The notes beneath the pieces were generated by a model, which was given only the letters and a program-made list of their open reading frames with translations, searched no databases and was not told the origin of the DNA. Positions 1,563 to 19,345 of a DNA stretch of 32,803 nucleotides are shown piece by piece. The DNA is taken from IMG/VR virus record IMGVR_UViG_2617270990_000007; one strand, 5' to 3'. Both the position numbers and the translations under genes were made by a program. The DNA is from a virus (taxonomy: Duplodnaviria > Heunggongvirae > Uroviricota > Caudoviricetes). Positions within the stretch are counted from its first letter, which is position 1; the number at the start of each line of letters is the position of its first letter.

Positions 1563-1841
1563 ATGGCACGCAACGTAAAATATTACAATTCTGATAATTC
1601 GCCCGTTCTTGCCTGCACGCACGAGCGGTATTCTCACGCATTCAAGTCTGAATGGTTCCAGCACCCTCCATGCACTGAAGAGCAGGCTGAATGGATAATT
1701 CAGTGTTACCGCAGGCGCGGATACGAGGTTAAGAAAGCTCTTAGTCTCGACTACCGTCACTGGATAATCTCAGTCAGATTGCCTTACTCCGAACGCCCAC
1801 CGCGTCCGTCCCGTACATTCCAGCAACGCATCTGGAGGTAA
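1563..1841 (+). CDS. hypothetical lambdoid-prophage protein (92 aa)
   Basis: ORF ending 1 nt before the GTG start of the next gene (compact operon arrangement); no motif recognised. Confidence 0.4.
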   Translation: MARNVKYYNSDNSPVLACTHERYSHAFKSEWFQHPPCTEEQAEWIIQCYRRRGYEVKKALSLDYRHWIISVRLPYSERPPRPSRTFQQRIWR

Positions 1842-1842
1842 C

Positions 1843-2892: not shown

Positions 2893-2894
2893 TT

Positions 2895-3287
2895 TTGTGG
2901 AGTAAGTTGATGCGTGATATTCAGATGGTTCTTGAGCGTTGGGGGGCATGGGCGGCTAATAATCATGAAGATGTGACCTGGTCGTCCATTGCCGCCGGTT
3001 TTAAGGGATTAATTCCTTCAAAAGTAAGATCTCGTCCGCAATGCTGTGACGATGACGCGATGATCATTTGTGAATGTATGGCTCGCCTGAAAAAAAACAA
3101 CAGCGATTTACATGATTTATTGGTGGACTATTATGTCGGCGGCATGACTTTTATGGCGCTTGCACGTAAGCATGGGCGATCTGATTGTTGGGTTGGCAGG
3201 ATGCTCCAGAAAGCTGAGGGCGTAGTGGAGGGCATGCTGATGGTGTTGGATCTCCGATTGGAGATGGATGCTGATTGTTCGAAATAA
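2895..3287 (+). CDS. late-gene antiterminator Q (phage 82 / QuuD type)
   Basis: Translation …[39 protein letters not shown]…[11 protein letters not shown]…[10 protein letters not shown]… matches the ~127-aa Q antiterminator family; true start probably the internal ATG giving MRDIQMV. Confidence 0.7.
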
Positions 3288-3299
3288 TTAAAGGAAAAG

Positions 3300-3328
3300 T
3301 TGCTGTCTGATTTTCATTAGTCTAACAT
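3300..3328 (+). promoter_or_regulatory. candidate pR'-like late promoter (TTGCTG - 17 nt - TAACAT)
   Basis: -35/-10-like hexamers with 17-nt spacing, 13 bp downstream of the Q stop; position matches lambdoid pR'. Confidence 0.35.
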
Positions 3329-3377
3329 TTTAAATGTTGGAATCGCAACGTAGTTATTATCATATAACAGCTTGTTT

Positions 3378-3405
3378 CCTGATTTAGCCAGCCTCCCCAA
3401 AGGCT
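3378..3405 (+). terminator. intrinsic terminator, candidate tR' (target of Q antitermination)
   Basis: Stem CCAGCC / GGCTGG with 8-nt loop followed by a T7 run, about 50 nt downstream of the putative pR'. Confidence 0.55.
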
Positions 3406-3442
3406 GGTTTTTTTCTAATAAGTATCATTTCGGGTGGGGATT

Positions 3443-3967
3443 TTATTGTTTAACCCATAATAGTTCATTGACATTGAATCCCAACTTTTGAGCGGTACGC
3501 ACATAGTCTGCTTTTACATTATCTGGAATAGTTTGGGTCCTTGCCAGAATCCATAGGTATTCTCTGTTCGGACCACTGACAAGAGCATACTTATACTCAT
3601 CATCCAGTTTGATTACATTATAGCCACCATAGAAGGGGCCAAAAAACGAAACTTTCAACGCTGCAGTTTTAGTATCTCCAGTAAAGTATGCTTTACCTTC
3701 GCTCTCGCTCCATTTGTTTTTCGTTGGATCGTATCCACGGTTAAGTACGCGAATCCCTCCGTCGTTCCGTTTTTCATAAGTAGCGCTGACCTGTTCCAGA
3801 CCACGTTCGAACCAGTTCTCGAGGCGAGCTATTTCATACCATTTTCCGAGGTAGCGGTTGGCGTCAAAATTTGTAATCGGCTGCACACCTTTAGGTGGTG
3901 TCGGGGCCTTACATGCTATAAGAGTGAAAGAGAGTGCAATGCCAGTCAACACAGGCCATAACTTCAT
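3443..3967 (-). CDS. lipocalin-family outer-membrane lipoprotein (Blc-like)
   Basis: 174 aa; lipoprotein signal with lipobox LIAC; strong similarity by eye to E. coli Blc (…NFDANRYLGKWYEIARL…FERGLE…KVSFFGPFYGGYNVI…YLWILART…). Confidence 0.8.
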   Translation of the reverse strand: MKLWPVLTGIALSFTLIACKAPTPPKGVQPITNFDANRYLGKWYEIARLENWFERGLEQVSATYEKRNDGGIRVLNRGYDPTKNKWSESEGKAYFTGDTKTAALKVSFFGPFYGGYNVIKLDDEYKYALVSGPNREYLWILARTQTIPDNVKADYVRTAQKLGFNVNELLWVKQ

Positions 3968-4159
3968 AATAAATCCTGTACTTTTGATAGTTGAGAGTAA
4001 GTATGAAAGATAGATGAGTACGACCGATCACTTAAAGAACTTTCCTACTATATTAGGAATAGTCAATAACAGAAAAATTGTCAGTGATGAAGCCAGAAAG
4101 GCAATTTAGTCCGTGCACTACAAAGTTTATGTGTTAATGAATTAGTCAAGGGGGAGGAA

Positions 4160-5119
4160 ATGATAAAAAAACCTGTGATTGGGATCAGCGGTTGTTTGGG
4201 CGGTTCTGCTGTTCGTTTTGATGGTGGTCACAAAAGAGATGACTTTTTAATGGACAAATTAGTGGAATGGGTAACATTCAGACCAGTATGTCCGGAAATG
4301 GCTATAGGGCTGCCAGTTCCGCGTCCTGCTCTACGACTTGTGCGCTCGAAGCAAGGAAATATACGGATGTGTTTCAGCCACGACCAGAATGAGGATGTGA
4401 CAGAGAGAATGACAGAGTTTAGTCGTTCTTATATGGACAAATTAAAGGATGTATCGGGGTTTGTGGTTTGTGCTAAATCTCCCAGCTGTGGCATGGAGCG
4501 CGTGCGTGTCTATGATGAAAATGGTAATCGAGGTCGTAAAGATGGAGTGGGACTATTTACGAGCACTTTGATGGAAAAGTTTTCCTGGCTACCGGTTGAA
4601 GAGGATGGGCGATTACATGATCCAGTGCTTCGTGAGAATTTTATTGAAAGAGTTTTTGCTTTGCATGAGCTCAATCACCTTTACAAGGAGAAATTATCAA
4701 GAAGAGAGTTATTAGCTTTTCATAGTCGTTATAAGCTTCAGTTGTTGGCGCATAGCCAGGCAGGCTATAAAGATATGGGACCATTTGTGGCTGCAATACA
4801 CGAGTGGGCGGACCTTGAATCATACTTTGAGGTGTATCGTGATAATCTGATGGCGATTCTCAGAAAACCAGCATCACGTAAAAATCACACGAATGTGCTG
4901 ATGCATATACAGGGGTATTTTAGTAATTACTTAAGTACACGCCAGCGTAAAGAGTTGAGCGAGGTTATACTTAACTATCGCTTTGGCACATTGCCTCTTC
5001 TTGCGCCGTTGACTCTGCTGAAGCATTATCTGGGTGAGTATCCTAATGATTACTTGCTTACACAGAATTACTTCGATCCCTATCCGGAAGAACTGGCTCT
5101 AAGACTGATGGTGAATTAA
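4160..5119 (+). CDS. DUF523/DUF1722 fusion protein (TudS/YbgA-like)
   Basis: 319-aa ORF with SD GGGGGAGG upstream; N-terminal Cys-containing region and C-terminal YbgA-like region recognised from memory only. Confidence 0.55.
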   Translation: MIKKPVIGISGCLGGSAVRFDGGHKRDDFLMDKLVEWVTFRPVCPEMAIGLPVPRPALRLVRSKQGNIRMCFSHDQNEDVTERMTEFSRSYMDKLKDVSGFVVCAKSPSCGMERVRVYDENGNRGRKDGVGLFTSTLMEKFSWLPVEEDGRLHDPVLRENFIERVFALHELNHLYKEKLSRRELLAFHSRYKLQLLAHSQAGYKDMGPFVAAIHEWADLESYFEVYRDNLMAILRKPASRKNHTNVLMHIQGYFSNYLSTRQRKELSEVILNYRFGTLPLLAPLTLLKHYLGEYPNDYLLTQNYFDPYPEELALRLMVN

Positions 5120-5516
5120 CTGTATGCGATATCATCTGAAAGTGATGAGTTCCTGTATGCAGGATATTTACAATCGTAAAAACTACGCTATGATGCTCAT
5201 AGTGTCAGTTTTTATAAAAATCCTGTTCACGCTAAAGAAAACATTGAGATGCAATTTAATGTTGGTAAACATACCAGCCCCAAAAGATTTTATTCAATCT
5301 GTTTTTATATGAAGATATTTCAAGTGAATATAAAGAGCATATAATATTATTATTGCACGCAGCTATTATAATATAACAGATTAGTTTAATGATTTGTTTT
5401 TTGTGAGTTAAACACATGGTTTTATAGTTGTGATGCAATGAGATTTTCCTTATTGTTGAACTGGCGAATATTGATTTTCCACCTATACTTACCTGGTGTA
5501 ACCCCAATGATATCAG

Positions 5517-6239
5517 GTGGATAATATGCCATACATATGTTCTATCATTTTGGTGTTGAACTCGTTTGGTGTCCGAATTGGTAAAGAAGATATTTTGTTT
5601 AAAAAAGGAAATGCTGTCCTCATTGAATACAATTTAAAAGATCTTTTTTCGTCAAATACAGATCATCTAATGATCGTAGATATTGAGGAGAAAACAGTTA
5701 ATGATTTCTTTAAAAACTACACACTCTCACCTTTTTCTGTAAGAAGGTTTTATCCGTCATACTTGATAGTAGAATGTGAAGATTTTTCATTGTTAAGGAA
5801 CTTGGTTGCATGCTTGAATTGTGATAGCAAAACCGTGGATGTAGTTAGAAATCAAATATCACTTGCATGTCTTGCTGTCTTATCTTCAGAGAAAATAGTG
5901 CAAAGTTTTTTGTTCGGAAGTCTTAATAGCTTAGGTTGTAAAGTTAAGGCTATTATTCACTCGGATATCTCAGCGTCATGGAGACTTTGTGATATATCTT
6001 CAAGATTATATATGAGCGAGAGTTTGTTAAAAAGAAAATTAAAAGACGAAGGATTATCGTTTAGTAAATTAATTCTTGAAGAACGAATGATGATGGCGCA
6101 AAGATTATTGATCTACAGTAACCATACTGTCGGCAAGGTGGCGGGAATATGCGGGTATGACAATGCATCATATTTTGTAAGTGTTTTTAGAGGATATTTT
6201 GGTGTGCCTCCGCACCAATATTTATCAAGATTTTCTTAG
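5517..6239 (+). CDS. AraC/XylS-family transcriptional regulator
   Basis: 240 aa, very AT-rich; C-terminal AraC-type HTH signature (…ASYFVSVFRGYFGVPPHQY…). Confidence 0.75.
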   Translation: MDNMPYICSIILVLNSFGVRIGKEDILFKKGNAVLIEYNLKDLFSSNTDHLMIVDIEEKTVNDFFKNYTLSPFSVRRFYPSYLIVECEDFSLLRNLVACLNCDSKTVDVVRNQISLACLAVLSSEKIVQSFLFGSLNSLGCKVKAIIHSDISASWRLCDISSRLYMSESLLKRKLKDEGLSFSKLILEERMMMAQRLLIYSNHTVGKVAGICGYDNASYFVSVFRGYFGVPPHQYLSRFS

Positions 6240-6429
6240 AAGATATGATGTGATGGCATTTTATAAAGTTATTTTTTGAAGTGTAAGATTATACGATATT
6301 TTTAGCTACGCCAGAATAATTGCTGGCGTTTTTCTTTTTGAATAGATGTTCGGGCCTTACGCTAATGTAACTTCTTTCCTTCTTCGAACCAAACCGTGTA
6401 CACCATCCGTTATCTGCGGAGGTGAGGCT

Positions 6430-6645
6430 ATGAAATCCATGGATAAGTTAACAACGGGCATCGCCTACAGCACCTCTGCAGGCAGTGCTGGCTACTGGTT
6501 TTTACAGTTGCTCGATAAAGTCACGCCCTCACAGTGGGCGGCAATAGGTGTATTGGGTAGTCTGGTATTTGGCATGCTGACGTATCTGACAAACCTTTAT
6601 TTCAAGATTAAAGAAGACAGGCGTAAGGTTGCGAGAAGAGAGTAA
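6430..6645 (+). CDS. lambdoid holin (EssD/S-like)
   Basis: 71 aa from ATG at 6430 ([31 protein letters not shown]…), SD GGAGGTGAGG upstream; closely resembles DLP12 EssD. Confidence 0.8.
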
Positions 6646-6649
6646 TCCA

Positions 6650-7201
6650 ATGACTCAAGACTATGAACTGGTTGTGAAAGGAGTTCGCAATTTTGAGAAT
6701 AAAGTGGCGGTAACTGTAGCCTTACGGGACAAAAAACACTTTGACGGTGAAATTTTTGACCTGGACATCTCGCTGGACCGTGTTGAAGGTGCCGCGCTGG
6801 AGTTTTATGAGGCAGCAGCCAGAAGGAGCATCAGACAGGTCTTCCTGGATGTTGCTGCCGGGTTATGTGAAGGGGATGAGCAGTCGCCGGAAAAGCGCCC
6901 CATAATTTTAGAGGCGCAGAATGTGTGGATAACCTACAAAGGAAAGCTACCGGGAAGAATTACTGGTTCTCTGAAGACGCCACCGACGGCATTGCGGTCA
7001 GAAAAAGATGATATTGAATCGCCCATTGAAAAACTGGAGGGCAGCGTCGCTGATCTGAATAAAAAATTGTCGGTGCTGATTCCTTCTGAAGATGAAAAAA
7101 AACGCCGCGATGAGCAGTTTGCGGCGTTTTACGATTATTGCATTGAAGTTACTCGCAGGAATTTTGTGAAGATTTTTGAGGAGGGTAAATCTCTTCAGTA
7201 A
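6650..7201 (+). CDS. hypothetical protein (183 aa) within the lysis cassette
   Basis: ORF between holin and endolysin; start taken at the ATG giving MTQDYELVVKG; no recognised motif. Confidence 0.45.
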   Translation: MTQDYELVVKGVRNFENKVAVTVALRDKKHFDGEIFDLDISLDRVEGAALEFYEAAARRSIRQVFLDVAAGLCEGDEQSPEKRPIILEAQNVWITYKGKLPGRITGSLKTPPTALRSEKDDIESPIEKLEGSVADLNKKLSVLIPSEDEKKRRDEQFAAFYDYCIEVTRRNFVKIFEEGKSLQ

Positions 7202-7409
7202 GCTTATTGGCGGACGCTGCAATTAATTCAGGAAGGTCCGCAAGGTCATCTGTCAGTGGATATGATGAAAAATCGGCGGCAGTTCTGTTAAGAAGCGCTT
7301 TAACTAATTCCTTTTCCTTCTCCGGCAACAAGTTGATTAGAGCTACGACTGCTTGCCTGAGTGCGATTAAATCAGCAAAAGTTTGTTTAGGTAGATTTGT
7401 GTAATCCAT
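7149..7409 (-). CDS. hypothetical small protein (86 aa), antisense to the lysis cassette
   Basis: ORF with AGAGG SD-like sequence about 6 nt upstream of its ATG; overlaps the 3' end of the preceding gene. Confidence 0.3.
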   Translation of the reverse strand: MDYTNLPKQTFADLIALRQAVVALINLLPEKEKELVKALLNRTAADFSSYPLTDDLADLPELIAASANKLTEEIYPPQKSSQNSCE

Positions 7410-7522
7410 AGTCGCCTCTGTGTTTATCAGATTGACATCCTCCTCCCGCCAGTGCCCATCACTGGTGAGGTAAGATTTAACATATCCGGGGATTTGAAGC
7501 CGATAAATCCTGATAAATATCC

Positions 7523-8550
<1,028 letters not shown>

Positions 8551-9369: not shown

Positions 9370-9458
9370 GGCTTTCAGCGGTGTAATGCGGGTTTGAGCA
9401 CCACATAAAGCCACTGAAAGCCGCTATAAATCACCCGAGTGTGGACACTGTGTGGACG
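9370..9458. other. candidate attL of the P2-like prophage (core region plus Int arm-type direct repeats)
   Basis: Two direct repeats GTGTGGAC (9439..9446, 9450..9457) at the int 3' end resemble the P2 Int arm-site consensus as I recall it; 11-bp inverted repeat GGCTTTCAGCG / CACTGAAAGCC (9370..9380, 9412..9422) just outside int. Confidence 0.4.
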
Positions 9459-10444
9459 TTTTCGGGTTCAATGCCGCCCTTTAACGGATTGAGTGTTACG
9501 GCATCTTGTAAATACTCTGGCGCGAAGTGCGCGTAGACCATTGTCTGCTCTATGCGCGCGTGACCGAGTATCCTTTGTAGCGTGATAATGCTTCCTCCGT
9601 TAATCATGAAATGCGTAGCAAAACTGTGCCGTAGAGCATGGGTTGCCTGTCCTGCTGGCAGGTCGGGCTTTACCTCTTTCAGTACCTGCCGGAACAACGT
9701 GTAATCGGCATTCGGGAACAGGAAGCCGCGCTTCACGCTGGTGAGTATTTCACATACTTCTGCCGATACTGGCACCGTTCGGGGTTTGTTCGTTTTGGTT
9801 TTAACAAACGTCACCCGATTATGGATGATGTGCTCGGCTTTCAGTTTTGCCGCTTCACCCCACCTAGCGCCCGTGCTTAGGCAAAGAACCGCTATTTTTT
9901 TATTGTCACCATCGAGCCGCGAGAAAAGGGCGGTAATTTCCTCGTTGGTTAAATAGCCCGTTTCGGGCTTCTCCTCTTTGAGTCGTTTACGTCCTCTTAT
10001 CGGGTGTTCGCCATGGTATAGCTCGGCCTCAATCAGAGCGGTAAACATTCCGCTGATGCATGTCAGATCCCGATTGATGGTAGATGGCTTAACGCCTTCA
10101 CCTCGCCGAGCTGCAACATACTGGCTAATTACCGTCTTTGTAATCTGAAACGCGCACGGATCACCGGTTATCGCCGCGAATTTCTCGACCTTTCCCCGAT
10201 TGTACTTTCCCCATTCCTCGTGCTTTGCCTTGAGTTCCCACCAGATTTGAATCAATTCGGAAAGTTGCCTTTTATCGGTCGGCTTCGCTAACCAATCCTT
10301 GTTGTGGTGGTTGTATTGCGTGTGCTTCTCAAAGGCCACTGCCTCACTTTTCTTGTCAAACTTCCTGCGGATGCGTTTTCCGTTGCGTCCGCTAGGTCTA
10401 ATGTCCACTTCATAACGACCATCATCGAGTTTCTTAATTGTCAT
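9431..10444 (-). CDS. int: P2-like tyrosine integrase
   Basis: 337 aa; C-terminal catalytic region with R…HALRHSFATH…LGH…Y motif typical of tyrosine recombinases; adjacent to C and cox in P2 order. Confidence 0.9.
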   Translation of the reverse strand: MTIKKLDDGRYEVDIRPSGRNGKRIRRKFDKKSEAVAFEKHTQYNHHNKDWLAKPTDKRQLSELIQIWWELKAKHEEWGKYNRGKVEKFAAITGDPCAFQITKTVISQYVAARRGEGVKPSTINRDLTCISGMFTALIEAELYHGEHPIRGRKRLKEEKPETGYLTNEEITALFSRLDGDNKKIAVLCLSTGARWGEAAKLKAEHIIHNRVTFVKTKTNKPRTVPVSAEVCEILTSVKRGFLFPNADYTLFRQVLKEVKPDLPAGQATHALRHSFATHFMINGGSIITLQRILGHARIEQTMVYAHFAPEYLQDAVTLNPLKGGIEPENVHTVSTLG

Positions 10445-10589: not shown

Positions 10590-10889
10590 TTAACCAGTCT
10601 TTTGGTCTGAGTGCTGCGATGTTGTTACATCTTGCCCAAAGTGTGCGAGTGCCGGTGCAATCTGACCGGCTTCAGGAGCAATTTGATCGGTCATAAACCA
10701 CAGGGTGTATTTACTAAATCTGGGGTGCTGTAGCATTTTCATTATGGCTTCTACGCCGGGACTTTTAACTCCAGATTCGTAGCCCCCCAACGTGCTATAG
10801 GCAATGCCCGTTAACTCGCTGAATTGCCTCTTGTTTAACCTTTCTGATTCACGGATGAGTTTTATCTTTTCAAATATCGGGGTTGACAT
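10590..10889 (-). CDS. C: P2-type immunity repressor C
   Basis: 99 aa; …KYTLWFMTDQIAPEAGQIAPALAHFGQ… matches P2 C from memory; divergent from cox. Confidence 0.85.
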   Translation of the reverse strand: MSTPIFEKIKLIRESERLNKRQFSELTGIAYSTLGGYESGVKSPGVEAIMKMLQHPRFSKYTLWFMTDQIAPEAGQIAPALAHFGQDVTTSQHSDQKTG

Positions 10890-10949
10890 AGTTACTCCTA
10901 TCTAAGAATATTGACTCGAAAGGGTGTGTTTAACCCCTTTCTGGTTATT

Positions 10950-11009: not shown

Positions 11010-11285
11010 ATGAACAGACAGCTTGTAAGTGCAACTGACGCGGTTCCTTACCAGGAGTTTGCAAAACTCATCGGTAAAACACCGGCAGCCGTGAAGGGAA
11101 TGATCGAAAAAGGGAAGTTGCCCGTTATTGAAATGACCGATCCGCAATCCACGTCTGGGCGTGCGGGAGAATACTGGGTATATCTTCCGGCATGGAACAA
11201 CGGCATGAAACTAGCATATGAAAGCCGTCCGAAGGAAATCAGAGAGGGGTGGTTGATGTGGTTAGGATTGGGCGATCGTTCATAA
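11010..11285 (+). CDS. cox: Cox (excisionase / early-promoter regulator)
   Basis: 91 aa; …VPYQEFAKLIGKT…GKLPVIEMTDPQS…GRAGEYWVYLPAWNNGMKLAYESRPKEIREGWLMWLGLG… matches P2 Cox. Confidence 0.85.
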   Translation: MNRQLVSATDAVPYQEFAKLIGKTPAAVKGMIEKGKLPVIEMTDPQSTSGRAGEYWVYLPAWNNGMKLAYESRPKEIREGWLMWLGLGDRS

Positions 11286-11289
11286 CTAC

Positions 11290-11484
11290 ATGGAGTTTGC
11301 GATGCTTATCCAAATCAACAGCAAAACAGCAATTTATCGCGGCTTCACGATCGTGAAGTTGCCGCGCAAAAAGCCGTATTCACGGCAGCGCTACCAAATC
11401 ACCAAAGGCGGAAATTATCTGGGGCTGGACTTCGGTCTGTCTCAGGCCCGTCAGACGATTGATCAGCTTCATCGGGGGAAATAA
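11290..11484 (+). CDS. hypothetical early protein (64 aa)
   Basis: ORF immediately after cox; stop overlaps the next start (ATGA). Confidence 0.4.
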   Translation: MEFAMLIQINSKTAIYRGFTIVKLPRKKPYSRQRYQITKGGNYLGLDFGLSQARQTIDQLHRGK

Positions 11485-11765
11485 TGACTACTTCAACCGC
11501 AGCTATTCTGAACGCTCGCCAGAGCGTCAATGCTTCCAGGCAGGACGGAACCCGCACGCCGTCCCGTAGTGGCTATGGTCCAAATCACCAACACAGCAAG
11601 TCGCGTAATGTTGTTCAGGGAATGGCACTGTCTGATATAGCGAAAAATGGTTTTGAGGTGCGATGTAAGGAAACGGGCATTCAATTTTCTATTCTTCCGG
11701 GTGGCTCTATATGTGACACCTTCAGTATTGAATTAGAAAAATACTGGAATAGCGGCGCTCGCTAA
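11484..11765 (+). CDS. hypothetical early protein (93 aa)
   Basis: ORF translationally coupled to the preceding one; no motif recognised. Confidence 0.4.
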   Translation: MTTSTAAILNARQSVNASRQDGTRTPSRSGYGPNHQHSKSRNVVQGMALSDIAKNGFEVRCKETGIQFSILPGGSICDTFSIELEKYWNSGAR

Positions 11766-11845: not shown

Positions 11846-12013
11846 ATGACAATTCAAACAAATGAACGCGCGCACCTGCTTGGATTGTTACGTATCAAAT
11901 TAACCTTGCTGAAAAAAGAAAAACTGTCCACCAATGAAATTTATCGCAGCCTGGAAAACTGGATCGACAACAGAGAACAGGCCGCAGAAATCAAGGAGCA
12001 AAAAAGTGATTAA
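11846..12013 (+). CDS. small ORF (55 aa) overlapping the methyltransferase start
   Basis: ATG with G-rich SD 8 nt upstream; stop TAA overlaps the GTG start region of the methyltransferase; below the 60-aa cutoff of the ORF track. Confidence 0.3.
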   Translation: MTIQTNERAHLLGLLRIKLTLLKKEKLSTNEIYRSLENWIDNREQAAEIKEQKSD

Positions 12014-12998
12014 CTCCCCTCTGATCTGGGCTGGCGGCAAGTCTCGCGCGATGCCTCATGTACTGGATGCTCTGCCGCAGGGTGAATGCCTCGTTGAGCC
12101 TTTTGTGGGTAGTGGTAGCGTCTTTCTGAATACAGACTATAAAACCTATATTCTGTGTGATAGCAATGCAGCCCTAATTAATTTCTTCTCTATGGTTAAG
12201 CGCAACACAGAAGCGCTTTTAACTTATGCATCCGCCTTGTTTTTGACTGGTAATAATGAAGATGCATATTACATAAATCGTGATGACTTCAATATTTTTA
12301 ATCGCGAGTACGCAGGGCATAGAGAGCAATATACAAATGATGAATTAGTTAAATATGCAGCGCTATTTCTTTATTTGAATCGTCACTGCTACAACGGTGT
12401 TTACCGTGTTAATTTAAAGAATGAATTCAACGTTCCTTTTGGTTTTCGTAAGAAGCCAATTTTCCCTGTGGCTGAGATTCAGCATTTTGCAAAAAGGGCT
12501 TGGGACAAAGGGGCAATGTTCCTGCATGGTGATTTCAGAGAAACAATTCCTCTATCTATCGGGCATTCAGGCTGCGTGGTTTATTGCGATCCTCCATACC
12601 TGCCAGCCAGCGAGACTGCAAATTTTACTGCATACGGTAAGCCCTTTACTGATGAAGACCATCGCGCCCTGGTTGCGATGCTTTCACGCCTCTACAACCA
12701 GGCAAAAATACCCTCTGTTATTTCCGGCAGTGACACCCCGGAAACGCGCCAAATTTACTACCCGTTCACCCTTAACTCATTCGAAGTCCGGCGTTCTGTG
12801 GGAGCAAAAACACGCAATCTCGCGGGTGAGGTGATTGGTTCGCTGCTCGTCTGTGACGAGTGCGGGCAAGTAGGGCGTGGTTATTGCGCTACCTGTTGCC
12901 CTGCCGTTGCTGGCGATGGCTATGAATCTGGAAGCGATACCTTTTGCTGTCGCAACTGCGAGATCTGCGATTCATACACAGCAGCAGAGGACTTCTGA
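12006..12998 (+). CDS. dam: Dam-like N6-adenine DNA methyltransferase with Cys-rich C-terminal extension
   Basis: SPLIWAGGK (AdoMet-binding motif I) and DPPY (catalytic motif IV); GTG start with AAGGAG SD 6 nt upstream; C-terminal ~55 aa carry ten Cys (CDECG…CATCC…CCRNCEIC). Confidence 0.85.
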   Translation: MINSPLIWAGGKSRAMPHVLDALPQGECLVEPFVGSGSVFLNTDYKTYILCDSNAALINFFSMVKRNTEALLTYASALFLTGNNEDAYYINRDDFNIFNREYAGHREQYTNDELVKYAALFLYLNRHCYNGVYRVNLKNEFNVPFGFRKKPIFPVAEIQHFAKRAWDKGAMFLHGDFRETIPLSIGHSGCVVYCDPPYLPASETANFTAYGKPFTDEDHRALVAMLSRLYNQAKIPSVISGSDTPETRQIYYPFTLNSFEVRRSVGAKTRNLAGEVIGSLLVCDECGQVGRGYCATCCPAVAGDGYESGSDTFCCRNCEICDSYTAAEDF

Positions 12999-13462
12999 TG
13001 ATTACTCCGTCCATTAACGATCACGTGAGCTATCTGCAAGGCGCGATAGCGGCGTTAGAAAAGGCAAAAGAGGCTGCATTAATTCACGCTGGTTATGCAG
13101 GTCTTTTGGCTGGCCCTGATGTTGAAAAGACGCTTCGTAAGTCTTTCGGGGCGGTTCTTGATCCCCTGATTAAGTCTCACAGTAGTGAGCTTGTTTTTCT
13201 TGGCTTTGATCCTGCCGCTGAAGCCGAGCCTGAAAGTCATACGGTTTGCGCCGTTGTTACGCGCGTTTTTTCACGCCGCTGCATTAGCAAAGGTTGCTGG
13301 CGCGTTGATTTCGAGGCGCACGATTTGTGGACTGATGAAGTTGTCCGGCATTCCCTCAACTATCCAACAGTCAAGGCCGCGCGGAAATGTAAACCAGGTA
13401 AACCGATGACATGGAAGACGACGCCTCCCCCGTTCGATTTTGATGATGGAGCGCCATTCTGA
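12998..13462 (+). CDS. hypothetical protein (154 aa)
   Basis: ATG overlaps the methyltransferase stop (TGATG); no motif recognised. Confidence 0.5.
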   Translation: MITPSINDHVSYLQGAIAALEKAKEAALIHAGYAGLLAGPDVEKTLRKSFGAVLDPLIKSHSSELVFLGFDPAAEAEPESHTVCAVVTRVFSRRCISKGCWRVDFEAHDLWTDEVVRHSLNYPTVKAARKCKPGKPMTWKTTPPPFDFDDGAPF

Positions 13463-13635
13463 TGAATACCGTTGAGGTTGTAGTGACAAAGGTGCTGGAT
13501 GTTCTCCCGCGCCGTAATTATTGGATCACTCGCGTTGAAGTTCTGGGCGAGGGTGGTTACAGCAATACAGACCTGATCACCTACTCTGAACGTGACGCAA
13601 GAGCGATACAGCCAGGCGACACGGTTTTCATCTGA
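13462..13635 (+). CDS. small ORF (57 aa)
   Basis: ATG overlaps the preceding stop; ends 9 nt before gene A; below the ORF-track cutoff. Confidence 0.35.
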   Translation: MNTVEVVVTKVLDVLPRRNYWITRVEVLGEGGYSNTDLITYSERDARAIQPGDTVFI

Positions 13636-13644: not shown

Positions 13645-16224
13645 ATGTCTTCATTTCGCCGCTCTCATAGCATGACCAACATGCCGGGAGGCTCTATCGA
13701 GCCAGCCCGGTATGCTTACGCCTGGAATGAGCCAAAAGCCGCCATCTTCGTTGATAAGGCTCCCGCTGTTGATCTATATGAATTGGGTCAAGAGCAGGAG
13801 TTTTTCGCCTGGGTTGAAAATCCCCTCAAGCCGTTGCCTATCTTCATTCGCCGCCGCATTGCCTCTTACATAAATACCGTTCACGAGGATAAAGGGCGCC
13901 ATATCGCAAAACTGAAGTTGCGCGACATCGTTAAGCGCGAGCTTCCACACGTCAGAAACGTCACGAAACAATACGCTGTGCCAGAAGACAATGAGTGGAT
14001 CATTTTCTCTGAACTAAACCCACTGTTTCACTCGTTTGAAAATCTGCGTGAACTTGTCCGCCGCTTTAATAATCTGGCGGATTGCACGGATGAAGATATT
14101 GATTTGCTGGCTCAGGACATAGCCATTTATGCCAATGCTGTTTTGGCTGAAGTGAGCGAGGGTGCAAGTGTGTTCAACGATACTGAATACACCAAACGCA
14201 TGCTGCGTGAAGGCTCCAGGCTGATTGCGTATTTCAGGTTAGTGCCGCCCTGGGCGAAGAAGCGCCGGATGGCGCTTGATGAAGCGACAGCAGCAATACA
14301 AAAAACCCTTCATGATCGCTTTTGGTCACGCCTCCTGCGCAAGTACGCCCGCCGCTGGCGCGAGCATTTGCACATTGCCTATGGTGACGTGCGCCGCGAT
14401 GTTTCACCGTATTGCAGCAAACACCACGTTACGCAGTGGGATTCACGCCGTAAGCGTAGCCGCGCAATTATGAGCCGCCTTGAACTTGAAGATCAGGTAA
14501 CTGGTGAGCGCATTTCGCTGATAGAGCAGATTGATAAGAGCATTTCTAATCCTGAAAAGCGCCGTGTTGAGTTGATGACGCGCATTGGTGGATTTGAGAA
14601 GGTGGCAACGGAAAGCGGGTTTGCCGGCAGTTTCTTCACCCTGACCGCGCCGTCTAAATATCATGCCTTTACAGCGTTCGGGCATCGTAACCGCAAATGG
14701 AACGGAGCCAGCCCCCGCAAGACACAAAACTACCTTAATCGCGTCTGGCAACTGATCCGCGCGGAGCTTGCGCGCCGTGAGATTTCTGTTTTTGGCCTTC
14801 GTGTTGCAGAGTCTCACCATGATGGTACTCCGCATTGGCATGGCCTTCTGTTCACAGCCCCAGAGCATACCGGCGAATTGCTGGAAGTGATGGAAGACTA
14901 CGCCACGCGTGAAGATGCTGATGAACTCACCGGCAAGAATGGCAAACAGCCCCGCTTTGAACTTAAGCCGATAGATCCGGCTTTGGGGAGCGCTACTGGA
15001 TATGTCGTTAAGTACATATCTAAAAACATCGACGGTTATGCACTGGATGGTGAAAGCGACGACGAAAGCGGACGCCCACTGAAGGAGACAGCAAAACACG
15101 CTACTGCCTGGGCTTCATGCTGGGGCATTCGTCAGTTTCAGTTTCTGGGTGGCGCGCCGGTGTCCGTCTGGCGTGAGTTACGCCGCCTGAAGAATCAGGA
15201 AATGGCAGATCGAATCAGTCCGGTTTTCGGTGAGTTACACCGCGCCGCCCATGCCGGGAACTGGCAGGACTACATCACCTTGCAGGGTGGTCCGTTCGTG
15301 ACACGGAATAGGCTTGTGTTGCGCGCCTGGTATCAATATCGGGATGAGCCGAGCAGTTACGGCGAGTTTCAGAGGGTTATTAAAGGGGTGGTCATGCCAG
15401 CATCGACCGTTCCTCCGGTTGAAACCCGCCTCCATTCTTATCGCATTGTCAAAAAGAAGCCAAAAGCAGACGACGCCGCCGATCGAGGTTTTGACCTTAA
15501 GGGCGCGCCCGCGCCCTCTTGGACTCGTGTCAATAACTGTACTGAGTACAAAAAACATACAAATCAAGGGGCGGTAAATCCACCGCCTGAAGATCCAGAA
15601 CAATATGAAATTGGTCAAATGAGCCGAGAGCAGAAAAAACGGCTTAATGAGAGCATCAGAAATTACAAACCAAAACAGCAAAAATCACCTGCTGATGTGT
15701 TTGAGTCGCTTGCCAATGCTATTGCCGCTTCAGATTGCGATAGCGCAGATCAGGAGCGCGCTGAAAATTACATGAAAGTGGCGGCGGCTATCCGCGATGA
15801 ATCAGCAACCCGGCGGAGCAGTGTTGTGGAGGCCACACCAATGACTGCTCACCTTCGCTATCAGCTTTCCTCTTGGGGAATTAAGTCCAAGCCTGATATT
15901 GATGCCCTTCGTCGCGGGGCTTTGCTTTCTTTTGATGATCGACATGTTTATCTGAAGGATGGCTATCTGGTAGAAAAGACCAAAGCAATTTACTGTAGGG
16001 CTAGAGATTGTAATGCGGAGTTAAATCAGGATGATATAACCTATGGCGATGAAAAGCTCTGCTTGGCTTGTACTATGAAGCTGAAGGGGGTAGAAGTAGT
16101 CGAACAGCGCCGCGATGAAGTTAAGCAGAGAGTTAAAGCGGAAAGGAAGCGGGAGAATGATGTACTCCTTGAAAGATTAAGGGTTGCGCTCATTAATGGG
16201 GGGAAGCGTGGGCAAGTACTTTGA
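13645..16224 (+). CDS. A: P2-family replication initiation protein A (rolling-circle endonuclease)
   Basis: 859 aa; central block …FFTLTAPSKYH…HHDGTPHWHGLLF…GYVVKYISKNIDG… matches the P2 gpA family (conserved Tyr/His motifs). Confidence 0.9.
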   Translation: MSSFRRSHSMTNMPGGSIEPARYAYAWNEPKAAIFVDKAPAVDLYELGQEQEFFAWVENPLKPLPIFIRRRIASYINTVHEDKGRHIAKLKLRDIVKRELPHVRNVTKQYAVPEDNEWIIFSELNPLFHSFENLRELVRRFNNLADCTDEDIDLLAQDIAIYANAVLAEVSEGASVFNDTEYTKRMLREGSRLIAYFRLVPPWAKKRRMALDEATAAIQKTLHDRFWSRLLRKYARRWREHLHIAYGDVRRDVSPYCSKHHVTQWDSRRKRSRAIMSRLELEDQVTGERISLIEQIDKSISNPEKRRVELMTRIGGFEKVATESGFAGSFFTLTAPSKYHAFTAFGHRNRKWNGASPRKTQNYLNRVWQLIRAELARREISVFGLRVAESHHDGTPHWHGLLFTAPEHTGELLEVMEDYATREDADELTGKNGKQPRFELKPIDPALGSATGYVVKYISKNIDGYALDGESDDESGRPLKETAKHATAWASCWGIRQFQFLGGAPVSVWRELRRLKNQEMADRISPVFGELHRAAHAGNWQDYITLQGGPFVTRNRLVLRAWYQYRDEPSSYGEFQRVIKGVVMPASTVPPVETRLHSYRIVKKKPKADDAADRGFDLKGAPAPSWTRVNNCTEYKKHTNQGAVNPPPEDPEQYEIGQMSREQKKRLNESIRNYKPKQQKSPADVFESLANAIAASDCDSADQERAENYMKVAAAIRDESATRRSSVVEATPMTAHLRYQLSSWGIKSKPDIDALRRGALLSFDDRHVYLKDGYLVEKTKAIYCRARDCNAELNQDDITYGDEKLCLACTMKLKGVEVVEQRRDEVKQRVKAERKRENDVLLERLRVALINGGKRGQVL

Positions 16225-16564: not shown

Positions 16565-17716
16565 TTAGATAGGGGAATTCATGCTATCGGGTGCTGTTAC
16601 TACCAAATGAACTTTCGTTAATCTTTCAACCGCAAGTTTAGGCAGTACACTATCAAAAATAGCTAAATAATTTTCCAAAAGGGAATTAATATAATCAAGT
16701 TTGCCATGCTCAATCTCATACCAAGTGTCAGGGAGATACCTGACTATAATGCTTAATGTATATAATACGACTAAGTGTAATACAAAGGGATCTTGAGTTC
16801 CCCAAAATGGGACAATTACACTCGTTCCACAATAACCAGATTTGTGTGTCGTGACATAATCCCACCATAGCTCATCTTCAGGGTGATGGACTTCTCCTAC
16901 AAAATATGGTTGGTCATATTTTGTGAGGTTTTCTTCTGACTCAATTTCAATGTTTTTTATTCCAATGTTGTAAGAATTAAGCTCTTCTGCTGTTACATCG
17001 CTACCTTTGGGATAAATTGCGGCATATGTAAAACCTGAGAACTCTGGTTTAGGACGCGATAGGCCACCGAGTGACTGATTCCTTGATCTTAAGAGCATGT
17101 TTCTACTTGCTTGTCCAATTTGGAATGAAAGTGGATCTTCACCGAAAGTTTCTTGTAAAAGCGGTCTTAATTCTGGAATTCGTTTTAATAAATCAGTTAA
17201 AGAATAGGTGCGTGATGGGTCTAAATCTTCATCTTTTTTTGGACGTCTTTCTGTTGCATACTGTTTGATATCAATTCCTATATGCTTTGCATATGAATAA
17301 AAATGTCCACTTTTAAGACAGCCTATTTTTATATTGTCTGGGAATGTTTCATTTTCAACAGATTGTGTGAATAGCCCATGACCTGAAACCGTATGCTTTT
17401 GAACATTTTTTAAATCGTCGTTAGGATCCCCTGATGATATTTGTTCAGCTAAGCTTATCTGTAATAATGCATAATATCTGGATAAAATTTTTGAATTGAG
17501 TCCGCCATTTTCAGTCTCCCAATATCCGATTGCACTTCGTATTGCGGAGGACATTCCAATGGATTTTTTAATCAATACATCCTCTTGCAATGACGGATGA
17601 TTATTTTCTATTATTTTCTTACAGAGCTGCGCACTCATTAATCGTTTTAATCGTAACCAGATTGCACCGCTAACATCTGCTGCAACGAAACGTTCTATTG
17701 TTTTTTCTGATGACAT
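16565..17716 (-). CDS. hypothetical protein (383 aa), hotspot cargo gene 2
   Basis: Long AT-rich ORF with AAGGAA SD 5-6 nt upstream of ATG; no domain recognised by eye. Confidence 0.6.
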   Translation of the reverse strand: MSSEKTIERFVAADVSGAIWLRLKRLMSAQLCKKIIENNHPSLQEDVLIKKSIGMSSAIRSAIGYWETENGGLNSKILSRYYALLQISLAEQISSGDPNDDLKNVQKHTVSGHGLFTQSVENETFPDNIKIGCLKSGHFYSYAKHIGIDIKQYATERRPKKDEDLDPSRTYSLTDLLKRIPELRPLLQETFGEDPLSFQIGQASRNMLLRSRNQSLGGLSRPKPEFSGFTYAAIYPKGSDVTAEELNSYNIGIKNIEIESEENLTKYDQPYFVGEVHHPEDELWWDYVTTHKSGYCGTSVIVPFWGTQDPFVLHLVVLYTLSIIVRYLPDTWYEIEHGKLDYINSLLENYLAIFDSVLPKLAVERLTKVHLVVTAPDSMNSPI

Positions 17717-17995: not shown

Positions 17996-19345
17996 TCAGT
18001 TAATATCAAAGCCTTCGATCTTCTCATACATCATTTCAAACCATTTGACTCGTTGTCCAGGTATTACAGCCATGAATGCGTACTCAGTGAGCATATCAGA
18101 GGAACGTAGTTCTTCATCGGTGGCTAAGTGGTATTTTAACAATATTGCAATATAATAAATCTCAGAAACATCGACAAGGTTTACAGGAATTGATAATCGT
18201 TTAAATATCTCATCTTCTGTCAGTTTTTTGTTTAATATTTCCATGAGTAAGGATTGGTTGAATATTTTCAAGAAAGCAACTAGTGCGATGGCAACATGAA
18301 ATATTTCATGTCGGTAGGAATTTACTTCGCTGGGGTCGTTCATTATTGCGAATGTTGAATAGCAACGCTCAGCCTCTCGCAGTGAACAGTTATTCATTTC
18401 TAGAAGATACGCGAGGGTTTTTACGAGAGAACCATTCCGAATCAGTATGTCATTCCCTTGATCTAACGACAGGAGATATTGTGTTAACGTTGAACGTTCA
18501 TAGCCTGCTCGGCAGCCTACTGAGAGCATACTTTTTTTAGGAAGAGTAAACCAATAATGAATAAATTTATTTAAATATAATCTTGTATTTATGCTCCCAT
18601 ATCTACACTCTATACTTTTTTCAAACTGCTCACGGTTAACTACTAGTAAGAAAACAAAACCTTCCACTGAAAATATATGTTTTATTTTCTCTAGCAAGTC
18701 AAGGGAAAAATCAGGTCGCGACCTGTCTAGCTCATCAATTATAAATATTATTTTTTTCCCACACTCAGTGTGAATCTTGGTCAGCAATGCTCTAAATTGC
18801 TCAATTGTTGCTAACTCACTCTCGCTCGTTTTTATTTTTTCTTCAATGTACTCTTCAATAGGTGATGTGAGAGAGTCACTGATGGCATCACTTGCTTTCT
18901 CCAGTGCGTTACCTGAGACTAATCCACTTGTGAAAGTGCTTACGGCAAATTTTGCACCATTAAGTGCGAATGACGCGCCTAGTTTTTTACCAATGGATAA
19001 TAACTCTTTCCCGAGGTTTTTAAGCTTTCCATCTTCTTTTTTTATGAGTGAATAAATTTTTGATGTTAAGGCTACAAATGGGTCTGATTGATAGTCATTT
19101 TCAAAAGCGTCAAAGTAAATAACGTCAAAGTTGTCAGCATGGTTTTTATTTATTTCTGATGACATCATTTTTACAAATGAGGTTTTTCCGTTACCCCATT
19201 CATCATTGAGCGCAAGTACAAGACTTTTATCTGGGGCATTTGTTGCTACCCGCATGATGATGTCATGAAGTTTTTTACGTCCAAATATGTCATCTGCTGT
19301 ACTAAAACCATCTGAGAACGCTTTAACAGGAGCGGTCAATCGCAT
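17996..19345 (-). CDS. KAP-family P-loop NTPase (449 aa), hotspot cargo gene 1
   Basis: Walker A with the KAP-typical Trp (NDEWGNGKTSF), following F-D-A-F…D-P-F segment, Walker B IIFIIDELDRSRPDF; GAGGAA SD upstream of ATG; AT-rich. Confidence 0.7.
   Translation of the reverse strand: MRLTAPVKAFSDGFSTADDIFGRKKLHDIIMRVATNAPDKSLVLALNDEWGNGKTSFVKMMSSEINKNHADNFDVIYFDAFENDYQSDPFVALTSKIYSLIKKEDGKLKNLGKELLSIGKKLGASFALNGAKFAVSTFTSGLVSGNALEKASDAISDSLTSPIEEYIEEKIKTSESELATIEQFRALLTKIHTECGKKIIFIIDELDRSRPDFSLDLLEKIKHIFSVEGFVFLLVVNREQFEKSIECRYGSINTRLYLNKFIHYWFTLPKKSMLSVGCRAGYERSTLTQYLLSLDQGNDILIRNGSLVKTLAYLLEMNNCSLREAERCYSTFAIMNDPSEVNSYRHEIFHVAIALVAFLKIFNQSLLMEILNKKLTEDEIFKRLSIPVNLVDVSEIYYIAILLKYHLATDEELRSSDMLTEYAFMAVIPGQRVKWFEMMYEKIEGFDIN

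What the first reader, a model, noticed from the sequence alone, without database searches (positions are those of the whole stretch)
11846..13635. Early region carries a Dam-like methyltransferase with a Cys-rich C-terminal extension; no obvious P2 B homologue
Seen: the SPLIWAGGK and DPPY motifs identify an N6-adenine methyltransferase, but the last ~55 residues contain ten cysteines in C-x2-C-like spacing, which is not part of a canonical Dam. It is flanked by translationally coupled small ORFs (55, 154, 57 aa). Nothing between cox and A resembles P2 B by eye. Inference: the extension may be a zinc-binding module affecting target choice or regulation.
Basis: partly seen in the sequence, partly recalled or inferred. 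Interest (0 to 1): 0.5.

Follow-up and report, generated by a model that had tools for sequence, protein, structure and literature searches.

The report
Phage Dam methylase with cysteine-rich tail
A P2-like prophage of E. coli carries an ordinary-looking GATC-type DNA adenine methylase with a real, conserved, acidic, nine-cysteine tail; shorter versions of this tail also occur in RecE-type nucleases and small early phage proteins, so it looks like a portable metal-binding docking piece, not a device for choosing DNA targets.

Summary
Window 12006-12998 encodes a 330-aa Dam-family methyltransferase with a GTG start, not the 354-aa ATG ORF. A 48-residue C-terminal extension carries nine cysteines, not ten, and E. 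coli Dam has no counterpart to it. The tail is not a frameshift artefact: dN/dS is 0.02-0.09 against three relatives, and four cysteines are invariant in 43 homologues.

The tail comes in two forms. A common short form has two knuckles, CxxCG...CPDCG, followed by VMGDATY and an acidic end. A rarer long form, seen here, adds a second CCxxCxxC cluster. The short form is not specific to Dam. It also occurs in K-12 Rac RecE (about residues 517-545), in RecE-like fusions to other nucleases, and in small early proteins of Mu-like and other prophages. No Pfam, NCBIfam or PDB entry covers it. AlphaFold gave no usable model.

The tail has net charge -7 and shares its module with non-sequence-specific nucleases. 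This argues against a role in target choice and favours a metal-stabilised protein-docking role (inferred).

Lack of a P2 B homologue is confirmed but ordinary: 76 phage records have B, against 378 with gpA.

The 154-aa ORF downstream is a near-orphan cassette. Its C-terminus (PPPFDFDDGAPF) closely copies the SSB tip (PPMDFDDDIPF).

The parts
10883..10912 (+). Pe-like early promoter candidate (TTGACA-18-AATATT) between the C repressor gene and cox
   Evidence: Consensus scan, 10 of 12 matches. Its position corresponds to Pe of P2. This is a consensus match only. No convincing terminator lies between cox and A.
11010..11285 (+). cox, the first gene of the early operon
   Evidence: PF10743 at E 1e-42. 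80% identical to P2 Cox.
11846..12013 (+). 55-aa ORF of unknown function; its stop overlaps the Dam GTG start by 8 nt
   Evidence: phrog_12723 at E 4e-16. Conserved directly upstream of Dam in ES1, L005, L011 and AMSCJX04.
12006..12998 (+). Orphan Dam-family N6-adenine DNA methyltransferase, 330 aa, GTG start
   Evidence: PF02086 at E 3e-55. TIGR00571 scores 223.9 bits against a cutoff of 114.85. PDB 2G1P at E 1e-56. Best PADLOC model is 'orphan methyltransferase'. No nuclease gene lies next to it.
12027..12794 (+). Catalytic D12-class methyltransferase domain, including WAGGK, the FVGSGS AdoMet loop and DPPY
   Evidence: The Pfam match covers residues 32-287 of the 354-aa ORF, which is 8-263 of the 330-aa protein. 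DPPY lies at nt 12588-12599.
12852..12899 (+). First Cys cluster: C283-x2-C286-G ... C294-x2-C297-C298-P. It corresponds to the widespread two-knuckle module CxxCG-x(5-7)-CPDCG.
   Evidence: C283, C286, C294 and C297 are invariant in 43 homologues.
12945..12968 (+). Second Cys cluster, C314-C315-x2-C318-x2-C321, found only in 'long' tails
   Evidence: Present in the E. coli relatives P0001-P0005, in Klebsiella and Salmonella P0022-24 and P0047, and in phages SEN4/SEN5. The profile search found it in no other protein.
12969..12995 (+). Acidic C-terminal tip ending in Phe (DSYTAAEDF)
   Evidence: 82 of 100 distinct family tails end in F, and position -3 is E in 82 of 100. The window's own tip is not significantly SSB-like: score -3, rank 133 of 1252.
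12998..13462 (+). 154-aa near-orphan ORF with an SSB-like C-terminal tip (PPPFDFDDGAPF). It forms a cassette bounded by the 9-nt repeat TTCTGATGA.
   Evidence: Only two protein clusters exist in 5.8 billion proteins. The second (83% identity, dN/dS 0.27) sits in the same position. The ORF is absent from all other relatives examined. Tip score is 35 against a background of -11.4 +/- 6.7. hhalign pairs only the last 13 residues with SSB. The repeats lie at 12993-13001 and 13457-13465.
13462..13635 (+). 57-aa conserved ORF of unknown function, immediately upstream of A
   Evidence: Weak phrog_8110 match. Homologues occupy the same place in ES1, Klebsiella CP052639, phiT5282H, L005 and L011.
13645..16224 (+). 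Gene A, the rolling-circle replication initiator endonuclease (859 aa)
   Evidence: PF05840 at E 7e-95. 34% identical to P2 A.

Best explanation
The gene encodes an orphan, Dam-type (most likely GATC-specific) N6-adenine DNA methyltransferase. It belongs to the early operon of a P2-like E. coli prophage, which runs cox ... Dam ... A, so it should be made when the phage replicates.

Its last 48 residues are a separately evolving, strongly constrained, acidic, Cys-rich appendage. The first half is a diverged copy of a small two-knuckle module, CxxCG...C(P)xC(G), that is rubredoxin-like and most plausibly binds Zn. This module is mobile among early DNA-metabolism proteins of enterobacterial temperate phages: Dam of at least two lineages, RecE/exonuclease VIII and its nuclease-swapped relatives, and small early proteins. 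The second half is a clade-specific extra cluster, CCxxCxxC, giving eight conserved Cys in all. That is enough for two Cys4 sites. It is followed by an acidic tip ending in Phe.

My reading is that the tail does not read DNA. It is a metal-stabilised docking piece that ties the enzyme to a protein partner, either a host replication/repair hub or another phage early protein.

Shown: the Dam identity, the reality and constraint of the tail, and the sharing of the module. Inferred: metal binding and the docking role.
For: **Dam identity**
- Family and structure matches.
- GATC-contact residues of E. coli Dam are conserved: Y119->Y129, N120->N130, R124->R134, P134->P144, N132->N142, plus DPPY.

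**Early-operon placement**
- The genes overlap one another.
- A Pe-like promoter is present and no clear terminator lies between cox and A.
- Relatives share the same layout.

**The tail is real and under selection**
- dN/dS is 0.02-0.09.
- Four Cys are invariant.

**The module is shared with other proteins**
- A tail profile found 26 representatives at E <= 1e-3 among 1.84 billion proteins. They include non-Dam proteins at E 1e-8 to 1e-5.
- Those proteins carry PF06630 Exonuc_VIII, DUF3799 PD-(D/E)XK or Rv2179c-like exonuclease domains. No Pfam model covers the module itself.
- K-12 RecE carries [28 protein letters not shown] at about residues 517-545.
- At least 584 matching stretches occur in IMG/VR, in RecE-family proteins and two Dam lineages.
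- Small module-bearing proteins lie in early regions next to RdgC, Kil or Mu Gam genes.

**Against DNA reading, for docking**
- The tail has net charge -7, and the RecE module region has net charge -16.
- The family tip is conserved as E-x-F at the C-terminus.
Against: - No structure supports the fold. AlphaFold2 gave pLDDT below 50 for the tail, both in the full-length protein and for the tail alone (mean 50.3).
- The window's own long tail matches the non-Dam module profile only weakly, at 10 bits. Its link to RecE-type modules is therefore transitive, through the short Dam tails.
- No partner is identified.
- Metal type and stoichiometry are unknown.
- The host already has Dam, and GATC is neither avoided nor enriched in the window (113 sites against 119 +/- 11 expected). 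The benefit of the enzyme is therefore not evident from sequence.
Confidence: 0.5

Rival explanations
1. The tail is a DNA-binding zinc finger that alters or extends target choice.
For: Cys4 knuckles are common DNA- and RNA-binding elements. The tail is attached to a DNA enzyme and is strongly conserved.
Against: The net charge is -7, with only two basic residues. The same module sits in acidic linkers of processive exonucleases and in small proteins without an obvious DNA-recognition role. GATC-contact residues lie in the catalytic domain and are mostly conserved.
Confidence: 0.1
2. The long tail binds an iron-sulfur cluster. The Cx2Cx2C run plus the Cys-Pro would ligate it, alongside one Zn site, making the methylase sensitive to redox state or iron.
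For: C315-x2-C318-x2-C321, together with C298-P299, resembles ferredoxin-type ligand spacing. Eight Cys are conserved between the two long-tail subtypes.
Against: Some long-tail members replace one Cys of the CC pair with Arg (P0024, P0047). Most of the family has only four Cys, in rubredoxin or zinc-knuckle spacing. No Fe-S family model or solved structure matches.
Confidence: 0.1
3. The tail is only a structural cap or a dimerisation element for the methyltransferase fold. It has no external partner, and its acidic end folds back on the DNA-binding cleft as an autoinhibitory DNA mimic.
For: The tail follows directly on the last strand of the Dam fold (EVIGSL). Acidic C-terminal tails that compete with DNA are known in SSB-type proteins (my own knowledge).
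Against: The module works in quite different protein contexts, including the middle of 800-1050-aa RecE-family proteins and the ends of 79-190-aa proteins. That fits an autonomous unit better than a cap tailored to Dam.
Confidence: 0.2
4. The extension is an artefact: a sequencing frameshift, stop-codon loss or mis-assembly that fused non-coding or out-of-frame sequence to Dam.
For: An alternative +1-frame ORF (TTG at 12944) overlaps the tail region.
Against: Independent assemblies give the same 330-aa product at 86-94% identity. Tail dN/dS is 0.02-0.09 with dS of 0.46-1.56. The tail is conserved in Salmonella phages SEN4/SEN5 at 46% identity.
Confidence: 0.01

Closest known systems
E. coli Dam (GATC N6-adenine methyltransferase; PDB 2G1P, 4GOL and others)
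   Same: The D12-class fold aligns over query residues 6-268 at E 1e-56. WAGGK, the AdoMet loop, DPPY and most GATC-contact residues are conserved.
   Different: The protein is not the housekeeping orthologue: NF008152 scores 238 bits against a cutoff of 441. It has a roughly 15-residue insertion after residue 96 and a 48-residue Cys-rich acidic tail that E. coli Dam lacks. K9 of E. coli Dam is Ile here.
Dam methylases of P2-like phages and prophages (Peduoviridae): Salmonella SEN4/SEN5, SI7 and SW3, Enterobacter phiT5282H, Klebsiella 3LV2017, E. coli ES1 prophage. A Dam methylase is also mentioned in CFT073 prophage phi-b0847 (PMC3573123).
   Same: The gene sits in the same position between cox and A, in a B-less early operon. 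The proteins are 44-94% identical, and all carry a C-terminal CxxC...CxxC extension.
   Different: Most have the short four-Cys tail (CPDCG-VMGDATY...AFDGAEGF). The window has the rarer nine-Cys tail, shared with a few E. coli relatives and, in a second subtype, with SEN4/SEN5 and some Klebsiella and Salmonella prophages. Database records annotate none of these tails.
Middle region of RecE (exonuclease VIII) of the Rac prophage and its relatives
   Same: It holds the same two-knuckle module, [28 protein letters not shown], embedded in acidic sequence.
   Different: The module is internal, at about residues 517-545 of 866, not C-terminal. It is attached to PD-(D/E)XK or Rv2179c-like nucleases, not a methyltransferase. 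The window's long tail is a diverged form, scoring only 10 bits against the non-Dam module profile.
Rubredoxin-type metal knuckles (CxxCG ... CPxCG)
   Same: The short tails have exactly this pair of knuckles. The window keeps CDECG and has CATCC-P. Weak PDB matches are to small Cys4 zinc ribbons and a miniaturised rubredoxin, at E 0.3-5.
   Different: Only 7 residues separate the knuckles, so there is no rubredoxin core. No significant sequence or structural match exists, and the metal is unknown.
C-terminal tip of E. coli SSB (DDDIPF, the SSB-Ct; PMC5872125, PMC3632105). This is relevant to the neighbouring 154-aa ORF.
   Same: ORF154 ends PPPFDFDDGAPF, against SSB PPMDFDDDIPF: 8 of 12 identical, including the terminal P-F.
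   Different: The rest of ORF154 shows no similarity to the SSB OB fold or to any family. The Dam's own tip (AAEDF) is not SSB-like, and short Dam tails resemble it only weakly.

Membership tests
Dam family / D12-class N6-adenine DNA methyltransferase (PF02086, TIGR00571) | Profile score above the curated cut-off | tested here: met
   PF02086 scores 188 bits against a cutoff of 22. TIGR00571 scores 223.9 against 114.85.
Dam family / D12-class N6-adenine DNA methyltransferase (PF02086, TIGR00571) | Catalytic DPPY motif and AdoMet-binding FxGxG loop | tested here: met
   DPPY lies at residues 195-198. PFVGSGS lies at residues 32-38. Both are invariant in the 43-sequence alignment.
Dam family / D12-class N6-adenine DNA methyltransferase (PF02086, TIGR00571) | GATC recognition residues of E. 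coli Dam (Y119, N120, L122, R124, P134; list from my own knowledge of the 2G1P structure) | tested here: inconclusive
   Y, N, R and P are conserved, L122 is Val, and K9 is Ile. This is consistent with GATC specificity but is not proof.
Dam family / D12-class N6-adenine DNA methyltransferase (PF02086, TIGR00571) | Methylation of adenine in GATC (enzyme activity) | not testable with these tools
   Needs DpnI/MboI digestion or a methylome from a dam- host.
Housekeeping Dam orthologue (NCBIfam NF008152 equivalog) | Score above the equivalog cut-off | tested here: not met
   238.3 bits against a cutoff of 441. The protein is a phage paralogue, not the chromosomal Dam.
Type II restriction-modification system | A cognate restriction endonuclease gene adjacent to the methyltransferase | tested here: not met
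   The neighbours are the 55-, 154- and 57-aa ORFs and gene A, none with a nuclease or R-M family match. The best PADLOC model is 'orphan methyltransferase'.
Rubredoxin-like / Cys4 zinc-knuckle module | Two CxxC knuckles with invariant Cys (CxxCG and CPxCG) | tested here: met
   C283, C286, C294 and C297 are invariant in 43 homologues. Short tails have CxxCG...CPDCG. The window has CDECG...CATCC-P.
Rubredoxin-like / Cys4 zinc-knuckle module | Metal binding and a folded knuckle structure | tested here: inconclusive
   AlphaFold2 pLDDT is below 50 for the tail. PDB profile matches are only E 0.3-5. Metal content is not testable here.
Any curated family covering the tail (Pfam, NCBIfam, PHROGs annotation, PDB) | A significant model match over residues 281-330 | tested here: not met
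   Pfam and NCBIfam matches stop at about residue 270. phrog_56, a generic 'DNA methyltransferase' family, reaches residue 310 with no separate annotation. There is no PDB match.
P2 gpB (helicase-loader-like replication protein) | Sequence similarity to P2 B anywhere in the window | tested here: not met
   The best tblastn E-value is 1.5. B homologues in phage records are all at least 80% identical to P2 B (76 records).
SSB (for the 154-aa ORF) | N-terminal OB-fold ssDNA-binding domain | tested here: not met
   No Pfam, NCBIfam, PHROG or PDB match. hhalign aligns only the last 13 residues.
SSB (for the 154-aa ORF) | Acidic C-terminal tip ending in I/x-P-F (SSB-Ct) | tested here: met
   DFDDGAPF against DFDDDIPF. 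The score is 35 against a background mean of -11.4 with sd 6.7 over 1252 ORF ends.

The most novel reading that the evidence does not exclude
The Cys-knuckle module is an undescribed portable docking domain. Temperate enterobacterial phages would use it to plug several DNA enzymes (Dam, RecE-family nucleases, Rv2179c-like exonucleases) and small early proteins into one shared host hub. In this prophage it would act together with a neighbouring cassette protein that carries a near-perfect copy of the SSB C-terminal tip. The early operon would then hijack or compete for the host SSB and replisome interaction network, possibly replacing what gpB does in P2.
Probability: 0.15. Interest if true: 0.7.

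Novelty: new variant of a known kind. Interest (0 to 1): 0.4.

Why it matters
Phage Dam methylases are routinely annotated and then ignored. This analysis shows that a large group of them, in P2-like prophages of E. coli, Klebsiella, Salmonella, Citrobacter and Enterobacter, carries a conserved, unannotated Cys-rich appendage. The core of that appendage is shared with the functionally unexplained N-terminal/middle part of RecE.

If the module is a docking device, finding its partner would explain how unrelated phage DNA enzymes are brought to the same place. It would also give a handle on the part of RecE that my own knowledge says is dispensable for nuclease activity yet improves linear-linear recombineering.

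The adjacent 154-aa protein with an SSB-tip copy offers a directly testable candidate for phage interference with the SSB interactome.

If none of this holds, the locus is simply one more orphan phage Dam.

Tried and rejected
- **AlphaFold2, full-length Dam** with 43 homologues. The catalytic core was acceptable, but residues 252-330 had pLDDT below 50.
- **AlphaFold2, tail alone** with 20 tails. Mean pLDDT was 50.3. I ran no fold search because the models are too poor to be meaningful.
- **PDB profile search with the tail**. It returned only chance-level Cys4 ribbons.
- **Megablast of the region against phages**. No match.
- **Tail tblastn against phages**. It found only SEN4/SEN5 and one Klebsiella record.
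- **The search for homologous proteins with a 45-aa module profile**. The word index gave only 4 candidates, so this was unproductive.
- **Literature searches** for a Cys-rich Dam tail, for the RecE N-terminal Cys motif and for 'CPDCG'. Nothing relevant turned up. One search was wasted because 'RecE' matched 'receptor'.
- **P2 Orf82 (DksA/TraR-type zinc finger) as the source of the tail.** Rejected. The only match is a 9-residue tblastn hit at E 1.4, and the Cys spacing differs.
- **The Dam tip as an SSB-Ct mimic.** Rejected for the window's protein (score -3, rank 133 of 1252). It is only weakly suggestive for short tails (scores 5-12).
- **ORF154 as an SSB.** Rejected, because there is no OB-fold similarity.
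- **ORF154 as a functional stand-in for gpB.** Unlikely, because close relatives lack it.
- **GATC avoidance or enrichment.** None found.
Full report
**What is in the window**

The 32.8-kb window is an E. coli contig; the protein database holds the identical 154-aa product on a 32,803-bp contig named E. coli. It carries a P2-like prophage. The relevant genes are:

| Gene | Coordinates | Strand |
|---|---|---|
| integrase | 9431-10444 | - |
| P2 C-like repressor | 10590-10889 | - |
| cox | 11010-11285 | + |
| DUF4761-like ORF, 64 aa | 11290-11484 | + |
| 93-aa ORF | 11484-11765 | + |
| 55-aa ORF | 11846-12013 | + |
| Dam | 12006-12998 | + |
| 154-aa ORF | 12998-13462 | + |
| 57-aa ORF | 13462-13635 | + |
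| gene A | 13645-16224 | + |

Two moron genes follow on the minus strand, then the portal, terminase, scaffold, capsid and tail genes. Cox is 80% identical to P2 Cox, and A is 34% identical to P2 A.

**Checking the observation**

The Dam assignment is solid.
- PF02086 scores E 3e-55.
- The TIGR00571 'dam' subfamily scores 223.9 bits against a cutoff of 114.85.
- E. coli Dam structures match at E 1e-56 over query residues 6-268.
- SPLIWAGGK and DPPY are present at residues 4-12 and 195-198.

The most likely start is the GTG at 12006. It has an AGGAG 7 nt upstream and forms a GTGATTAA overlap with the stop of the 55-aa ORF. This gives 330 aa, and PGAP uses the equivalent start in two complete E. 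coli genomes.

The 55-aa ORF overlaps Dam by 8 nt. The Dam/154 and 154/57 junctions each share one base, as TGATG.

The aligned Dam fold ends near residue 280 (EVIGSL). E. coli Dam has only a short unrelated end there. The window protein continues with LVCDECGQVGRGYCATCCPAVAGDGYESGSDTFCCRNCEICDSYTAAEDF. This holds nine cysteines, not ten, and has net charge -7.

**Is the tail real?**

Yes.
- Five protein clusters at 86-94% identity have the same 330-aa length and the same tail.
- In codon alignments with three independent relatives, tail dN/dS is 0.02-0.09 at dS 0.46-1.56. That is as constrained as the catalytic domain, or more so.
- Salmonella phages SEN4/SEN5 and some Klebsiella and Salmonella prophages have a second subtype of the same long tail, 46% identical, with the same Cys pattern.

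The frameshift explanation is therefore refuted.

**Two tail types**

All of the 120 best homologues have an extension, apart from a few fragments.

Most have a short form: VCDGCGRSGGGYCPDCGPVMGxxTYxAMAAAGAFDGAEGF. It consists of two rubredoxin-style knuckles (CxxCG and CPDCG) seven or eight residues apart, a VMGDATY-x-x-M motif, and an acidic end. That end finishes in Phe in 82 of 100 distinct tails.

The window has the rarer long form. The second knuckle reads CATCC-P, the GD-x-Y-E motif is recognisable, and an extra CCxxCxxC cluster is inserted before the tip.

Four Cys (283, 286, 294, 297) are invariant across 43 diverse homologues. Eight are conserved across both long subtypes. That is enough for two Cys4 sites. 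A [4Fe-4S] cluster at the second site cannot be excluded.

**The module is not Dam-specific**

A profile of 20 tails, searched against 1.84 billion representative proteins, gave 26 hits at E <= 1e-3. Besides Dam proteins, these include the following.
- Proteins with the PF06630 exonuclease VIII N-terminal region and either a PD-(D/E)XK (DUF3799/RecE) or an Rv2179c-like 3'-5' exonuclease C-terminal domain.
- Several 79-190-aa proteins that end with the module.

No Pfam model covers the module in any of them.

Translating recE of E. coli K-12 shows [28 protein letters not shown] at about residues 517-545.

A scan of IMG/VR found at least 584 confirmed stretches. The 75 ORFs I extracted are RecE-family proteins with three different C-terminal ends, plus two distinct Dam lineages. 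One lineage joins the module through a different linker.

Small module-bearing proteins lie in early regions next to RdgC, a T1-type Dam, Kil or Mu Gam genes.

One caveat applies. The window's own long tail scores only 10 bits against a profile built from non-Dam modules alone. Its relationship to RecE-type modules therefore runs through the short Dam tails, which occupy the same position in orthologous proteins.

**What the tail probably does**

- The tail is strongly acidic.
- The module also sits in very acidic linkers of processive nucleases.
- The GATC-contact residues lie in the catalytic domain and are mostly conserved.

A small, autonomously transferable, metal-stabilised unit in acidic, probably flexible regions of several phage DNA enzymes fits a protein-docking element better. 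This is an inference. No partner is identified, and AlphaFold2 gave no usable model.

The enzyme itself is an orphan methyltransferase. No nuclease lies nearby, and the best PADLOC model is 'orphan MTase'. It is expressed from the early operon by position: a Pe-like promoter is present and there is no clear terminator. GATC is neither avoided nor enriched in the window.

**P2 B**

tblastn finds no B homologue in the window. This is ordinary. B occurs in 76 phage records, all at least 80% identical to P2 B, whereas gpA-like proteins occur in 378. All close relatives of this prophage share the B-less cox...Dam...A layout.

**The 154-aa ORF**

This ORF is the most unexpected item in the interval.
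- It is absent from the closest relatives examined; there, Dam is followed directly by the 57-aa gene.
- It has no match in phage records or complete E. coli genomes.
- It has only one other cluster among 5.8 billion proteins. That cluster is 83% identical, sits in the same position and has dN/dS 0.27.
- The cassette is bounded by the 9-nt repeat TTCTGATGA, which spells Phe-stop/Met at both junctions.
- Its C-terminus, TTPPPFDFDDGAPF, copies the E. coli SSB tip NEPPMDFDDDIPF. Scored against the SSB tip, it reaches 35, where 1252 other ORF ends average -11.4 with sd 6.7.
- hhalign pairs only those last 13 residues with SSB. The rest of the protein matches nothing.

The SSB-Ct hexapeptide is the docking site for many SSB-interacting proteins (PMC5872125, PMC3632105). 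ORF154 is therefore a candidate mimic or competitor.

The Dam's own tip is not SSB-like (score -3). Short Dam tails such as AFDDLEAF and GFDNGEPF are only weakly so, at scores of 5-12.

**Novelty and verdict**

A Dam gene in a P2-like prophage is known and routinely annotated (for example PMC3573123). The Cys-rich tail is real, widespread and apparently undescribed: no curated family, no solved structure, and no hit in the literature I could search. Its kinship with the RecE middle region is a new link, as far as I can tell.

I rate it a new variant of a known kind, of moderate interest. The mechanism remains open, and the neighbouring SSB-tip protein provides a sharper testable side-finding.

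Noticed in passing
window 12998-13462 (+): The 154-aa near-orphan ORF ends PPPFDFDDGAPF, a close copy of the E. coli SSB C-terminal tip PPMDFDDDIPF. The rest of the protein matches no family. It is a candidate SSB-Ct mimic or competitor.
   Followed up: partly
window 12993-13001 and 13457-13465: The 9-nt repeat TTCTGATGA (Phe codon, stop, overlapping ATG) bounds the 154-aa cassette exactly. Relatives without the cassette have a single such junction. This suggests cassette gain by recombination at the 'F-stop-M' gene junction.
   Followed up: partly
window ORF154 residues ~64-80 (nt ~13187-13237); Citrobacter/Enterobacter Dam tails, e.g. P0025 and L020: ORF154 contains ELVFLGFDPAAEAEPES. It shares the heptapeptide FLGFDPA with a subtype of Dam tails (...GEMFLGFDPAKGCETQEPF*). 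This is an unexplained shared short motif.
   Followed up: no
L010 (E. coli K-12 recE, about residues 517-545): Rac prophage RecE carries the same two-knuckle module, [28 protein letters not shown], in its acidic middle region. No Pfam family covers it.
   Followed up: partly
window 16565-17716 (-) and 17996-19345 (-): Two low-GC genes (37-40% GC) sit between gene A and the portal gene, at the known P2 moron site. One is a YaaC-like protein (PF14175). The other is a KAP-family P-loop NTPase that matches the PADLOC candidate defence system PDC-S20 (E 1e-74).
   Followed up: partly
window 1-1286 and 31518-32803: The two ends of the contig are an identical 1,286-bp direct repeat encoding an IS3-family transposase pair (HTH_Tnp_1 plus rve). 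The right copy cuts the prophage after tail gene I. The contig may be an assembly loop between two IS copies.
   Followed up: partly
window 1563-8550: Upstream of the P2-like integrase lies a remnant of a different (lambdoid-type) prophage mixed with other genes. It includes DUF968/HNH, Blc lipocalin, a 2-thiouracil desulfurase-like gene, an AraC-family regulator, DUF1327, a phage lysozyme and a DUF2514 spanin-like gene.
   Followed up: no
window 13462-13635 (+): The 57-aa ORF is conserved immediately after Dam (or before A or Dcm) in E. coli, Klebsiella and Enterobacter P2-like phages. Its function is unknown, and it matches phrog_8110 only weakly.
   Followed up: partly
L001 4501-5490; L002 5034-6050; L008 3708-4631; L004 8535-9239: Several relatives carry a second methyltransferase near Dam. 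Two of these genes are annotated only as 'DNA methyltransferase' (SEN5, SI7), and the Klebsiella one as a DNA cytosine methyltransferase. E. coli ES1 has a second adenine methylase after A. The window has none.
   Followed up: no
L016-L019 (IMG/VR), ORF of 318 aa: A second, distinct Dam lineage (PLKWVGSKARV...DPPY) carries the same module through a different linker and ends ALNAEPF. This suggests the module was acquired more than once or is readily exchanged.
   Followed up: no
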